A DNA stretch of 33,445 nucleotides, taken from positions 1 through 33,445 of the IMG/VR virus record IMGVR_UViG_3300045988_112031. The stretch is one strand, 5' to 3'. The DNA comes from a virus. Its lineage: Duplodnaviria > Heunggongvirae > Uroviricota > Caudoviricetes. A program made the translations under genes and the position numbers. Under the pieces are notes generated by a model. The model ran no database searches and was not told where the DNA came from. It worked only from the letters and a program-made list of their open reading frames with translations. Below, in pieces: positions 28,420-29,251 of the stretch; the first letter of the stretch is position 1, and each line of letters starts with the position of its first letter.

Positions 28420-28448
28420 ATGTAGGATATCCAACATGCCAATGTCAA
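28420..28448 (-). promoter_or_regulatory. pR promoter with operator OR1 (TTGACA-N5-ATGTTGGATATCCTACAT)
   Basis: Minus strand: TTGACA then, after 5 bp, the 18-bp near-palindrome ATGTTGGATATCCTACAT overlapping the -10 position; the same module occurs inverted at pL. Coordinates approximate. Confidence 0.6.
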
Positions 28449-28484
28449 GAATCCTACATGGTCATGTGGTAGGATTGCCTACAT
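28449..28484. promoter_or_regulatory. additional operator half-sites (OR2/OR3-like) and presumed pRM region upstream of cI
   Basis: Half-sites ATCCTACAT and ATGTGGTAGGAT / TGCCTACAT between OR1 and the cI ATG. The cI start has only a weak AGGA upstream (contained in an operator half-site), so cI may be near-leaderless. Confidence 0.4.
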
Positions 28485-29136
28485 GATGAACATGAGTGAG
28501 CGTATTCGCCAAAGGCGAAAAGAACTGAACCTGACACAACAAGCACTGGCTGATTTGACTGGTGTGAACCGTGTCACGGTTACTGGATGGGAAAAGGACG
28601 ACTACCAACCAAATGGAGCCAACCTTCAAGCCCTAGCCAACGCACTTAAATGCGATCCTCTGTGGCTTGTTAGCGGAAAAGGCTCGCCTGAACCAAAGAT
28701 AAATCTAAAACCTGAAATATTCGCAGTTAAAAAAGTCCCCCTCATCTCGTGGGTTCAGGCGGGTTCATGGACAATGACGGAGCCTGGTGTCAGGAAAGAA
28801 GATGCTGAAGAGTGGGTTTATACTACCGCCCTTGTATCAGAAATGGCATTTGCACTACGGGTTCGTGGTGATTCAATGACCAATCCCCTCGGCTCACCAT
28901 CGATACCAGAAGGTTCTATCGTTATCGTAGAGCCAGATATTATTGATACAGAGTGTATTAACGGAAAAATCGTTGTTGCCCATATCAATGGTGGGCAAGA
29001 AGCGACACTCAAAAAATTTGTTGAGGACTGGCCGAACAGGTATCTCGTCCCACTAAATCCTAACTATAAAACTATTGAATGCGGTGAGAACTGCAGAATA
29101 GTTGGTCTTGTCAAACAAGTAATAATGGATTTTTGA
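28483..29136 (+). CDS. cI: CI-type repressor (N-terminal HTH, C-terminal S24 LexA-like autopeptidase)
   Basis: 217 aa; HTH ..LTQQALADLTGVNRVTVTGWE..; C-terminal ..RVRGDSMTNP.. with a downstream Lys (Ser-Lys dyad pattern); flanked by operator-containing promoters. Confidence 0.85.
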   Translation: MMNMSERIRQRRKELNLTQQALADLTGVNRVTVTGWEKDDYQPNGANLQALANALKCDPLWLVSGKGSPEPKINLKPEIFAVKKVPLISWVQAGSWTMTEPGVRKEDAEEWVYTTALVSEMAFALRVRGDSMTNPLGSPSIPEGSIVIVEPDIIDTECINGKIVVAHINGGQEATLKKFVEDWPNRYLVPLNPNYKTIECGENCRIVGLVKQVIMDF

Positions 29137-29156
29137 CACATCTTCCTCACTATCGC

Positions 29157-29182
29157 AAAACCGGGGTATCCCCGGTTTTTTT
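29157..29182 (+). terminator. intrinsic terminator after cI
   Basis: CCGGGG-tat-CCCCGG hairpin followed by seven T, about 20 nt after the cI stop. Coordinates approximate. Confidence 0.7.
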
Positions 29183-29198
29183 ATGAGCCTATCTTTTT

Positions 29199-29216
29199 AT
29201 GTAGGATAACCAACAT
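29199..29216. promoter_or_regulatory. operator OL2 (ATGTAGGATAACCAACAT)
   Basis: 18-bp near-palindrome, a variant of the OR1/OL1 sequence, 35 bp upstream of OL1. Confidence 0.5.
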
Positions 29217-29222
29217 AAACTC

Positions 29223-29251
29223 TTGACACTCACATGTTGGATATCCTACAT
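29223..29251 (+). promoter_or_regulatory. pL promoter with operator OL1 (TTGACA-N5-ATGTTGGATATCCTACAT)
   Basis: Plus strand TTGACA, 5 bp, then the identical 18-bp operator found at pR; drives rightward transcription of the accessory operon. Confidence 0.6.

What the first reader, a model, noticed from the sequence alone, without database searches (positions are those of the whole stretch)
28420..29251. Immunity region: the same 29-bp promoter-operator module in inverted copies flanking cI
TTGACA-N5-ATGTTGGATATCCTACAT occurs on the minus strand left of cI (pR, driving cro) and on the plus strand right of cI (pL); the 18-bp operator is a near-perfect palindrome overlapping the -10 position, with extra half-sites at both ends. 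This gives a directly readable operator consensus for this repressor.
Basis: seen in the sequence. Interest (0 to 1): 0.45.

Follow-up and report, generated by a model that had tools for sequence, protein, structure and literature searches.

The report
P22-type prophage repressor operators around cI
The two inverted 29-bp repeats are the rightward and leftward early promoters of an E. coli prophage, each overlapped by the binding site of its cI repressor: an ordinary lambda/P22-style genetic switch whose operator sequence has apparently not been described before.

Summary
TTGACA-N5-ATGTTGGATATCCTACAT occurs exactly twice in 33 kb, at 28420-28448(-) and 29223-29251(+), against 0 expected by chance. 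The copies flank a cI gene (HTH + S24 peptidase) that is divergent from a P22-type cro.

The interpretation (pR/OR and pL/OL) is supported by three results:
- **Homology:** cI is 45% identical to P22 C2.
- **Layout:** it matches the annotated P22 immC closely. Operators are 18 bp, OR spacing is 22/25 bp (P22 22/26), OL1-OL2 spacing is 35 bp in both, and the -10 sits in the same operator register.
- **Footprinting:** in about 85 related loci the operators and -35 hexamers stay fixed while the flanks diverge.

The "extra half-sites" are really a full OL2 (29199-29216), a weak OR2 (28442-28459) and an OR3 (28467-28484) on the cI start.

The operator differs from P22's at half-site positions 3 and 6, and every phage carrying it shares the helix GVNRVTVTGWE. 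No host-gene operators were found. Binding is untested.

This is a new member of a known kind, of modest interest. Two side observations are odder. The short promoter spacers next to the operators, including both copies of the N5, are 20-50 times more polymorphic than synonymous sites. And pL fires directly into an uncatalogued modular structured-RNA element followed by a terminator, with no N-like gene.

The parts
28190..28387 (-). cro (65 aa), first gene of the rightward early operon (transcribed leftward in window coordinates)
   Evidence: Pfam P22_Cro, E 7.6e-22. PDB 1rzs (P22 Cro), E 7e-12. A GGGAGA Shine-Dalgarno lies 6 nt before the ATG (sequence).
28419..28448 (-). pR: -35 TTGACA 28448-28443, 18-nt spacer, -10 TACATT 28424-28419. 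Predicted start near 28411.
   Evidence: Promoter scan, 10/12 matches. CTTGACA is invariant in all relatives. The start site is inferred.
28420..28437 (.). OR1, ATGTAGGATATCCAACAT, occupying the pR spacer and -10
   Evidence: Exact consensus match. Top matrix score. Essentially invariant in about 85 related loci.
28438..28441 (.). Hypervariable spacer between OR1 and the pR -35 (part of the N5)
   Evidence: Nucleotide diversity 0.22, against 0.005 at cI third codon positions, among 61 near-identical copies.
28442..28459 (.). OR2 (weak), ATGTCAAGAATCCTACAT. The right half-site is perfect; the left half overlaps the pR -35. Its centre is 22 bp from OR1.
   Evidence: Fifth-best 18-mer in the window. 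The half-site is conserved in most relatives and degenerate in the 76% identity group. P22 OR1-OR2 spacing is also 22 bp. Occupancy is inferred.
28447..28475 (+). Putative PRM: -35 AAGAAT 28447-28452, 17-nt spacer, -10 TAGGAT 28470-28475. Predicted start near 28481, giving a nearly leaderless cI mRNA.
   Evidence: Placed by register with annotated P22 PRM (AGGAAT-17-TAAGAT, start 4 nt before the c2 ATG), whose -10 is positions 4-9 of OR3 exactly as here. Not found by the consensus scan. Inference.
28460..28463 (.). Hypervariable spacer between OR2 and OR3
   Evidence: Diversity 0.10 over 28460-28466; tri-allelic sites at 28460 and 28462.
28467..28484 (.). OR3, TGGTAGGATTGCCTACAT, overlapping the cI start codon. 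Its centre is 25 bp from OR2.
   Evidence: Fourth-best 18-mer. TGGTAGGATTGCCTACATGATGAA is conserved in relatives down to 62% repressor identity, including mEp390.
28483..29136 (+). cI repressor (217 aa; alternative ATGs at 28486 and 28492)
   Evidence: HTH_3 + Peptidase_S24. 45% identical to P22 C2. The C-terminal domain aligns with lambda cI. A93-G94, S131 and K177/K178 are invariant in the alignment with P22 C2 and the mEp390 repressor.
29157..29185 (+). Intrinsic terminator of cI (AAAACCGGGG-UAU-CCCCGGUUUUUUU)
   Evidence: Fold -15.2 kcal/mol, z -2.85. A hairpin plus T-run is present at this position, with different sequences, in all relatives.
29199..29216 (.). OL2, ATGTAGGATAACCAACAT, upstream of the pL -35. 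Its centre is 35 bp from OL1.
   Evidence: 17/18 match. The position is conserved in relatives while the sequence varies within the consensus. P22 OL1-OL2 is also 35 bp.
29223..29252 (+). pL: -35 TTGACA 29223-29228, 18-nt spacer, -10 TACATT 29247-29252. Predicted start near 29260.
   Evidence: Promoter scan, 10/12 matches. Same register as P22 pL, where the -10 is operator positions 14-18 plus T.
29229..29233 (.). Hypervariable N5 spacer of pL
   Evidence: Diversity 0.16; eight variants among near-identical copies.
29234..29251 (.). OL1, ATGTTGGATATCCTACAT
   Evidence: Exact match. Conserved in relatives, including a Morganella prophage whose repressor is 49% identical.
29263..29348 (+). First sequence transcribed from pL: the 5' 86 nt of a modular structured element, cut off here by an inserted gene cassette (29349-29918)
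   Evidence: 97-99% identical in mEp460, P1, Stx2a phages and IME207. Complete 135-nt copies are in L004, L002 and L003.
29919..30042 (+). Complete second copy of the modular element (subtype 2), closed by GUUGUGGUG/CACCACAAC
   Evidence: No Rfam family matches.
30063..30108 (+). Terminator-like hairpin plus U5 between the RNA elements and the first conserved early-left gene (yfdP-like, 30250-30609)
   Evidence: Fold z -4.6. The hairpin is kept by compensatory changes in other phages, GGCGGTACCAG.. versus GGCGGTGGCAG...

Best explanation
This is the immC-type lysis/lysogeny switch of a temperate enterobacterial prophage, built like that of phage P22.

**In the lysogen.** Dimers of cI bind 18-bp pseudo-palindromes with half-site ATGTWGGAT.
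- At OR, the strong site OR1 lies between the -35 and -10 of pR and blocks cro transcription. A weak OR2, 22 bp away, is probably filled cooperatively. It sits on the pR -35 and next to the -35 of a PRM-like promoter. OR3 covers the -10 of that promoter and the cI start, allowing negative autoregulation.
- At OL, OL1 occupies the same position in pL as OR1 does in pR, and OL2 lies 35 bp upstream on the other side of the -35.

**Why the halves are asymmetric.** In both copies the half-site nearest the transcription start reads ..CCTACAT, not ..CCAACAT. This appears to be because it doubles as the -10 hexamer TACATT.

**On SOS induction.** RecA-stimulated self-cleavage of cI at Ala-Gly, by the Ser/Lys dyad, frees both promoters. 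Cro, a P22 Cro homologue, is then expected to bind the same sites.

**Shown:** the sequences, their non-random occurrence, homology of cI and Cro, geometry matching P22, and phylogenetic conservation. **Inferred:** binding, cooperativity, PRM, start sites and Cro action.
For: - **Occurrence.** Two exact copies against 0 expected. The five best operator-like 18-mers of the 33-kb window all lie between cro and cI or just after cI.
- **Proteins.** cI has HTH_3 + Peptidase_S24, and Cro is P22_Cro. The N-terminal domain of cI matches P22 C2 DNA-binding-domain structures, and the C-terminal domain matches lambda cI. Identity to C2 is 45%. Cro matches P22 Cro structure 1rzs.
- **Geometry against annotated P22.** Operators are 18 bp. 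OR centre spacings are 22 and 25 bp here, 22 and 26 in P22. OL1-OL2 is 35 bp in both, with the -35 in between. The pL -10 is operator positions 14-18 plus T in both. The PRM -10 is positions 4-9 of OR3 in both (TAGGAT vs TAAGAT). The repressor ATG abuts OR3 in both.
- **Footprinting.** In 80 IMG/VR loci, 4 enterobacterial genomes and mEp390, OR1, CTTGACA, OR3+ATG, OL1 and the position of OL2 are kept while leaders and spacers diverge.
- **Specificity.** Every repressor associated with this operator, down to 49% identity, has the identical segment GVNRVTVTGWE where P22 has GVSNVAISQWE. P22R reads positions 2-5 and 14-17, and a position-3 change abolishes specific binding (PMC4267663). The operator here differs from P22 half-sites, read, at positions 3 and 6.
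- **Exclusion.** There is no LexA-type box in the window.
Against: - No binding, transcription-start or expression data exist for this phage or its close relatives in the sources searched.
- OR2 has only one good half-site and is degenerate in the 76% identity group, so a tripartite OR is not secure.
- pR sits about 21 bp closer to cro, relative to the operators, than it does in P22. OR1 here therefore occupies the place OR2 has in P22 pR, and no operator lies downstream of the -10.
- PRM was not picked up by the consensus scan.
- No OL3 is present.
- The transcript from pL meets a strong terminator-like hairpin before any conserved early-left gene, and no N-like protein was found. How 'pL' serves the early-left operon is therefore unresolved.
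Confidence: 0.88

Rival explanations
1. The right-hand module is not a true early-left operon promoter. It is a cI-controlled promoter dedicated to a short non-coding RNA that ends at the terminator at about 30108. On this view the downstream genes (yfdP/yfdQ-like and others) are expressed from elsewhere or only by read-through.
For: - The predicted start (about 29260) is 3 nt before the structured element.
- In relatives without the inserted cassette, the promoter, a 135-nt element and the terminator together form a compact unit of about 190 nt.
- The terminator hairpin folds strongly (z -4.6) and is maintained by compensatory changes in other phages.
- No N-like antiterminator was found.
Against: - In P22 and lambda the corresponding promoter, in the same place and register, is pL.
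- All downstream genes are co-oriented with it, and the scan found no other good promoter before yfdP.
- In mEp460 the element lies about 290 nt from the repressor-proximal promoter, so it is not always promoter-fused.
- The two readings are not exclusive: the unit could be an attenuator or antitermination leader.
Confidence: 0.25
2. The palindromes are recognised mainly by a regulator other than cI: Cro alone, the CII-like YmfL protein, or the Ash/Rha protein.
For: Cro is expected to share the sites. No binding data exist.
Against: - The operator type tracks an invariant cI recognition helix across 49-100% identical repressors.
- Operator length and symmetry match those of the homologous P22 C2 N-terminal-domain dimer.
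- The closest relative, vB_EcoM-720R4, has no Ash/Rha gene annotated between ymfM and the O gene yet carries the same modules.
Confidence: 0.04
3. The inverted copies are structural leftovers, such as the terminal inverted repeats of a mobile cassette carrying cI or a recombination scar, with no regulatory role.
For: Immunity modules are exchanged as cassettes. The same region occurs in myovirus-type prophages and in Stx2c lambdoid phages.
Against: - Both copies are good sigma-70 promoters pointing outward to co-oriented genes.
- Conservation follows the functional units (operator, -35) and not the stretches between them.
- Additional non-repeat operator copies (OL2, OR3) exist.
Confidence: 0.02

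Closest known systems
Salmonella phage P22 immC (c2 repressor, cro, OR1-3/OL1-3, pR, pL, PRM)
   Same: - Homologous repressor (45% identity) and Cro.
- 18-bp operators with the symmetry centre between bases 9 and 10.
- OR1-OR2 spacing of 22 bp, and OR2-OR3 of 25 bp against 26.
- OL1-OL2 spacing of 35 bp with the -35 in between.
- The -10 of pL is formed by operator bases 14-18 plus T.
- The PRM -10 lies inside OR3, and the repressor ATG abuts OR3.
- A terminator follows the repressor gene.
- A separate antirepressor region lies elsewhere in the genome.

   Different: - Operator half-site is ATGTWGGAT against P22's ATTTAAGNN (positions 3 and 6).
- Recognition helix is NRVTVTG against SNVAISQ.
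- pR is shifted by about one operator, so the identical promoter-operator module is used at both pR and pL.
- No OL3.
- No gene-24 (N) or nut sites were recognised downstream of pL.
- The CII-type activator is YmfL/CP76-like, not C1.
Phage lambda OR/OL switch
   Same: The repressor C-terminal domain is homologous, with Ala-Gly, Ser and Lys aligned to lambda cI. OR is tripartite between divergent cI and cro. OL lies on the far side of cI. The -35 hexamers of pR and PRM are back-to-back. The cI mRNA is predicted to be leaderless.
   Different: Lambda has 17-bp operators of unrelated sequence and a different N-terminal domain. Its OL is 2.3-2.4 kb from OR (from memory), against 814 bp here. Lambda has N/nut antitermination.
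Coliphage mEp390 (Hendrixvirinae) immunity region
   Same: The repressor is 62% identical with an identical recognition helix. OR and OL are colinear. OR3 plus the ATG is identical, and the TTGACA-N5-operator-TACATT module is the same.
   Different: mEp390 operators carry AAG in place of AGG/TGG in some half-sites (e.g. AAGTAAGATATCCTACAT). Its cro-like gene and flanks are different. Cross-immunity is unknown.
Phage HK022 early operons (no N; cis-acting put RNAs read through terminators)
   Same: This resemblance rests on recall only. Here too a structured RNA lies immediately downstream of pL, followed by a terminator, in a phage with a Q-like but no recognisable N-like protein.
   Different: The megablast search with 28150-29450 returned no HK022 record; the put sequences were not fetched or compared directly. 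The element here has a variable interior and also occurs in P1 next to tRNA genes. No copy lies downstream of pR. The function is untested.

Membership tests
Lambdoid CI/Cro immunity switch (P22 immC type) | Divergently transcribed repressor (HTH + S24 self-cleaving domain) and cro genes | tested here: met
   Pfam HTH_3 + Peptidase_S24, and P22_Cro. PDB matches. Ala-Gly, Ser and Lys invariant in the alignment with P22 C2 and the mEp390 repressor.
Lambdoid CI/Cro immunity switch (P22 immC type) | Several related pseudo-palindromic operators in the cI-cro intergenic region, overlapping divergent promoters | tested here: met
   OR1 is strong; OR3 scores 14/18; OR2 is a perfect half-site plus a weak half. 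All rank in the top 5 of the window and are conserved in relatives. OR2 occupancy is uncertain.
Lambdoid CI/Cro immunity switch (P22 immC type) | A second operator cluster overlapping an outward promoter on the other side of the repressor gene | tested here: met
   OL1 and OL2 with TTGACA-18-TACATT. Same 35-bp spacing as P22.
Lambdoid CI/Cro immunity switch (P22 immC type) | Repressor and Cro bind these operators, and binding is cooperative | not testable with these tools
   Needs EMSA, footprinting or ChIP. Indirect support only: the recognition helix is invariant wherever the operator occurs.
Lambdoid CI/Cro immunity switch (P22 immC type) | N-type antiterminator gene and nut sites as the first functions of the pL/pR operons | tested here: not met
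   No N-like hit in Pfam or PHROGs for any ORF tested between 29250 and 33146. pL leads into non-coding elements and a terminator. A Q-like protein is present at 21730-22482. Small ORFs were not searched exhaustively.
P22 C2 specificity group (homoimmune with P22) | Operator half-site ATTTAAG, with T at position 3 | tested here: not met
   The half-site here is ATGTWGG. A position-3 change abolishes P22R binding (PMC4267663). Contact-helix residues differ.
LexA-controlled (SOS-box) promoters | CTGT-N8-ACAG box over the promoter | tested here: not met
   No such box anywhere in the window. The palindrome here has TGT..ACA arms separated by N10.
Rfam-catalogued RNA families (for the element downstream of pL) | Covariance-model match at or near the gathering score | tested here: not met
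   There were no hits over the element in the window at gathering threshold. At relaxed thresholds there were none in L004 at E<=1, or in the P1 locus and three array-bearing loci at E<=0.1. ARAGORN finds no tRNA there.

The most novel reading that the evidence does not exclude
cI may directly control, through pL, a member of an undescribed family of modular structured RNAs. The family has a conserved closing stem (GUUGUGGUG/CACCACAAC) and conserved 5' and 3' hairpins, with freely exchangeable 40-140-nt interiors. Copies are often arrayed with a second unit type and with tRNA genes, and they are shared by heteroimmune lambdoid prophages and P1. On this reading the RNA, not an N protein, is the first early-left function, acting as a processed sRNA or tRNA mimic, or as a cis-acting antitermination leader for the terminator that follows it. 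Separately, the promoter spacers next to the operators, including both copies of the N5, may be targets of diversifying selection or local hypermutation that tunes the switch without touching repressor binding.
Probability: 0.3. Interest if true: 0.6.

Novelty: new member of a known kind. Interest (0 to 1): 0.28.

Why it matters
- **Annotation and prediction.** The result gives a clean, comparatively validated operator consensus (half-site ATGTWGGAT, 18 bp) and promoter map for an immunity type found in about 140 of 5,426 complete E. coli genomes, in Stx2c-converting phages, and in Enterobacter, Erwinia, Pantoea and Morganella prophages. This helps with annotation, with predicting homo- and heteroimmunity, and with reusing the switch as an orthogonal P22-like repressor/operator pair.
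- **Recognition code.** The paired differences from P22 form a natural specificity swap: operator positions 3 and 6, and helix residues S31N, N32R, S36T and Q37G in P22 numbering. They could inform recognition-code studies of the C2 fold.
- **Conceptual content.** The switch itself adds nothing new to the lambda/P22 paradigm. The leads worth following are the spacer hypervariability and the RNA element.

Tried and rejected
- **Host-gene operators.** An exact scan for ATGTWGGATATCCWACAT in one genome per species (596 Gb) gave 41 stretches. About 35 are expected by chance (my calculation, assuming uniform base composition). Only 4 lie next to cI/cro homologues: Enterobacter soli, Erwinia tracheiphila, Pantoea brenneri and Morganella morganii. 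The E. coli representative genome has none. There is therefore no support for prophage-controlled host genes, although only exact matches were searched.
- **Other operators in the prophage.** The matrix scan found none; the next-best scores are at background level.
- **LexA boxes.** None.
- **Literature.** Full-text searches for operator substrings and for mEp390/mEp460 immunity work found nothing relevant.
- **The RNA element as a known family.** It is not in Rfam, which includes AgvB, AsxR, STnc100, isrK and C4. It is not a tRNA by ARAGORN. There are no literature hits by sequence. The Pas sRNAs described in a 2026 preprint sit in a different, late-gene context. The fold energy of the whole element is not exceptional (z -0.9 and -1.75 for the two complete copies folded, -1.1 for the truncated copy). 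Support for RNA pairing rests on a few compensatory and wobble changes, and my search pattern itself restricted which changes could be seen.
- **The short ORF in the element.** The ORF 29273-29395 is not a real gene; other versions of the element stop after 7-8 codons.
- **Spacer hot spots.** Quasi-palindrome template switching and Dcm deamination were considered as causes. The observed substitutions fit neither.
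Full report
**1. The observation**

Reading 27900-29800 and searching the pattern shows TTGACA-N5-ATGTTGGATATCCTACAT at exactly two places. These are 28420-28448 on the minus strand and 29223-29251 on the plus strand. No further match appears even with three mismatches, and none appears in 100 shuffles. The repeat finder extends the inverted pair to 40 nt at 85% complementarity (I1). The two arms differ essentially only in the N5 (TTGGC vs CTCAC).

The consensus promoter scan calls both copies as TTGACA-18 nt-TACATT. The 18-mer is symmetric at 16 of 18 positions. A looser search finds a third full site at 29199-29216 with one mismatch.

A weight matrix built from the six strong half-sites ranks five sites as the best 18-mers of the whole 33-kb window:
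- OL1 29234-29251, OR1 28420-28437 and OL2 29199-29216 (strong);
- 28467-28484, TGGTAGGATTGCCTACAT;
- 28442-28459, ATGTCAAGAATCCTACAT, which has a perfect right half.

The "extra half-sites" are better described as OL2, a weak OR2 and OR3.

**2. What lies around it**

- The ORF 28483-29136(+) has HTH_3 and Peptidase_S24 domains. The divergent ORF 28387-28190(-) is P22_Cro. The next minus-strand ORF is a CII-type (CP76/YmfL) protein.
- The N-terminal domain of cI matches the P22 C2 DNA-binding-domain structures, and its C-terminal domain aligns with lambda cI. Overall identity to P22 C2 is 45%. Ala-Gly, Ser and Lys are invariant in the alignment with P22 C2 and the mEp390 repressor. Cro matches the P22 Cro structure 1rzs.
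- A hairpin plus U-run terminator follows cI at 29157-29185.
- The minus-strand operon continues through an O-like replication gene, a methylase, RusA and a Q-like antiterminator. The ORF layout continues leftward in the same orientation. The plus-strand side carries yfdP/yfdQ-like and other early-left genes. The window is thus essentially one prophage.
- The immunity region is 99.4-99.7% identical in phages vB_EcoM-720R4 and SKA5, in three Stx2c-converting phages and in Lys8385Vzw. It is also in about 140 of 5,426 complete E. coli genomes.

**3. Comparison with P22, read directly from the annotated record**

In P22, OR1 (ATTAAAGAACACTTAAAT), OR2 and OR3 (ATTTAAGATGACTTAACT) have centres 22 and 26 bp apart. 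Here the spacings are 22 and 25 bp.

P22 PRM is AGGAAT-17-TAAGAT. Its -10 is positions 4-9 of OR3, its transcript starts 4 nt before the c2 ATG, and that ATG abuts OR3. Here positions 4-9 of OR3 read TAGGAT, AAGAAT lies 17 nt upstream inside OR2, and the cI ATG overlaps the end of OR3. A nearly leaderless cI mRNA starting near 28481 is therefore predicted. This is an inference.

P22 OL1 and OL2 are 35 bp apart with the -35 (TTGACC) between them. The pL -10 (TAAATT) is operator positions 14-18 plus T. Here OL1 and OL2 are also 35 bp apart, with TTGACA between them, and TACATT sits in the same register.

There are four differences:
- There is no OL3. The expected position is occupied by the cI terminator.
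- pR sits about one operator closer to cro. OR1 therefore fills the pR spacer and -10, exactly as OL1 does in pL. This is why the same 29-bp module appears twice.
- As a result the -35 hexamers of pR and the putative PRM overlap back-to-back, which resembles lambda more than P22.
- The operator sequence differs. The half-site is ATGTWGGAT here and ATTTAAGNN in P22, so positions 3 and 6 differ.

Published work states that P22 repressor binds an 18-bp site, contacts positions 2-5 and 14-17, leaves the central four base pairs uncontacted, and loses specific binding on a position-3 change (PMC4267663). The recognition-helix region reads GVNRVTVTGWE here against GVSNVAISQWE in P22.

**4. Phylogenetic footprinting**

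- mEp390 has a 62% identical repressor with an identical helix. It has colinear OR and OL, an identical OR3 plus ATG, and TTGACA-N5-AAGTAAGATATCCTACAT-T at pL.
- Eighty IMG/VR loci were fetched. They include repressors of 76-91% identity whose cro leaders, inter-operator spacers and post-cI sequences are unrelated. OR1, CTTGACA, OR3+ATGATGAA and OL1 are nevertheless kept, as is an OL2 exactly 35 bp upstream.
- The cI terminator is kept as a structure with different sequences.
- The four real genomic hits of the exact operator show the same layout. They are in Enterobacter soli, Erwinia tracheiphila, Pantoea brenneri and Morganella morganii, the last with a 49% identical repressor. All carry the same recognition helix.
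- In every case the half-site nearest the transcription start reads CCTACAT. This is explained by its second role as the -10 hexamer TACATT.

**5.

The exact operator occurs in 41 stretches of 596 Gb of reference genomes. I calculate about 35 expected by chance. Only the four above are next to cI/cro homologues. The window has no other good site and no LexA box. There is thus no sign of host genes under this repressor, with the limit that only exact matches were scanned. No paper in the searchable library gives this operator.

**6. Mechanism and confidence**

The best-supported reading is a P22-type bistable switch:
- cI dimers at OR1 (and OR2) and at OL1/OL2 repress pR and pL;
- OR2 and OR3 govern a PRM-like promoter;
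- RecA-mediated self-cleavage induces the prophage;
- Cro then acts on the same sites.

Confidence is 0.88. The sequence features, homology, geometry and conservation are shown. Binding, cooperativity, start sites and PRM are inferred.

**7. What pL actually transcribes**

The predicted pL start (about 29260) lies 3 nt before an 86-nt segment, 29263-29348. That segment is 97-99% identical in heteroimmune phages (mEp460, Stx2a phages, IME207) and in P1. Many of the 1,193 E. coli genomes with any match probably match only this segment, though I did not verify this.

Complete copies run 82-200 nt. They share three features:
- a 5' module, GTTGTGGTGAATGCGCAGGCTGATGCGC;
- a 3' module, GCCGGAGATCAGCACCGGYCACCACAAC;
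- entirely different interiors, 37 distinct ones in the loci fetched.

A second subtype has different inner hairpins. In the window the first copy is truncated by an inserted cassette carrying ORFs 29370-29645(+) and 29563-29808(-). A complete subtype-2 copy follows at 29919-30042.

Variation in the closing stem is G-C to A-U (P1 type) or to G.U or U.G, with one A.C. Hairpin 1 shows GCGCA/UGCGC changing to GCGUA/UACGC. This suggests RNA pairing, but my search pattern limited what could be seen.

In many phages the unit alternates with a second unit type (GGTAAGAGCA...TGCTCTTWCC) and sits beside genuine tRNA genes. No Rfam family and no tRNA model matches.

The array is followed by a conserved terminator-like hairpin (30063-30108, z -4.6) and a 22-bp-stem hairpin (30108-30200, z -6.3) before the yfdP-like gene. 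No N-like protein was detected. Whether this leader is an sRNA unit, a tRNA-like decoy or an antitermination device is unknown.

**8. Hypervariable spacers**

I compared 61 near-identical copies, whose cI proteins are about 100% identical. Nucleotide diversity:

| Region | Diversity |
|---|---|
| 28438-28441 (spacer) | 0.22 |
| 28460-28466 (spacer) | 0.10 |
| 29229-29233 (spacer) | 0.16 |
| cI third codon positions | 0.005 |
| cro third codon positions | 0.002 |
| both -35 hexamers | 0 |
| operators | 0.004-0.011 |

Eleven of the 13 spacer positions vary, against 14 of 282 third codon positions (Fisher p = 1e-11). There are 26 three-spacer haplotypes. Other non-coding stretches nearby are invariant, so this is not simply relaxed constraint.

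A control on P22-type loci shows a weaker clustering of multi-allelic sites in OL spacers. I have no tested explanation.

**9. Verdict**

The finding is correct and well interpreted, but ordinary in kind. It is a new operator specificity within the P22/lambda family of switches. The two side observations, the spacer hypervariability and the modular RNA leader, are what might repay further work.

Noticed in passing
window 29263-29348 and 29919-30042; L004 4114-4248; L002 2501-2635; L003 2001-2135: A modular structured element lies directly downstream of pL. It has conserved 5' and 3' modules, closed by GUUGUGGUG/CACCACAAC, and unrelated 40-140-nt interiors. It is shared by heteroimmune lambdoid prophages and P1, and is often arrayed with a second unit type (GGTAAGAGCA...TGCTCTTWCC) and real tRNA genes. 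It has no Rfam or tRNA match, and no literature hit by sequence.
   Followed up: partly
window 28438-28441, 28460-28463, 29229-29233: Three tiny promoter spacers next to the operators are 20-50 times more polymorphic than synonymous sites among 61 near-identical copies. Several sites are tri-allelic, and there are 26 haplotypes. The operators, the -35 hexamers and other nearby non-coding DNA are nearly invariant. A weaker analogue is seen in P22-type OL regions.
   Followed up: partly
window 26379-27233 (-), with isrK at 27103-27179 (-) and C4 at 26991-27078 (-): The pR operon contains an immI-like antirepressor module: isrK and C4 antisense RNA genes (Rfam 78.7 and 77.8 bits) followed by an Ash/Rha-type regulator. 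The annotation of the closest phage, vB_EcoM-720R4, shows no such gene between ymfM and the O gene. So this prophage, like P22, seems to have a second immunity region.
   Followed up: no
window 26907-27191 (-): The Pfam Phage_ASH match (residues 15-109 of the long ORF) lies over the isrK and C4 RNA genes. Either the stretch is dual-coding, like icd in P1, or the protein family partly reflects translated RNA genes.
   Followed up: no
window 29349-29918: A cassette is inserted into the first RNA element. It carries two convergent, overlapping ORFs, 29370-29645(+) (PHROG 3195) and 29563-29808(-) (PHROG 3311), both of unknown function. It is absent from Lys8385Vzw and many related loci, so it looks like a moron placed right behind pL.
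   Followed up: no
window 30063-30200: A terminator-like hairpin plus U5 (z -4.6) is followed immediately by a 22-bp-stem hairpin (z -6.3) whose 5' strand starts at the U-tract. Both lie upstream of the yfdP-like gene. The terminator is kept by compensatory changes in other phages. This could be an attenuator or antitermination arrangement.
   Followed up: partly
L002 2200-2500 and L006 2270-2420: mEp460 and mEp390 share another conserved non-coding stretch between their repressor-proximal promoter and the elements above (..TATGGCACATG.GCCG..GGTAGCCGGAATGTGCAAG..). It may be a further structured leader RNA.
   Followed up: no
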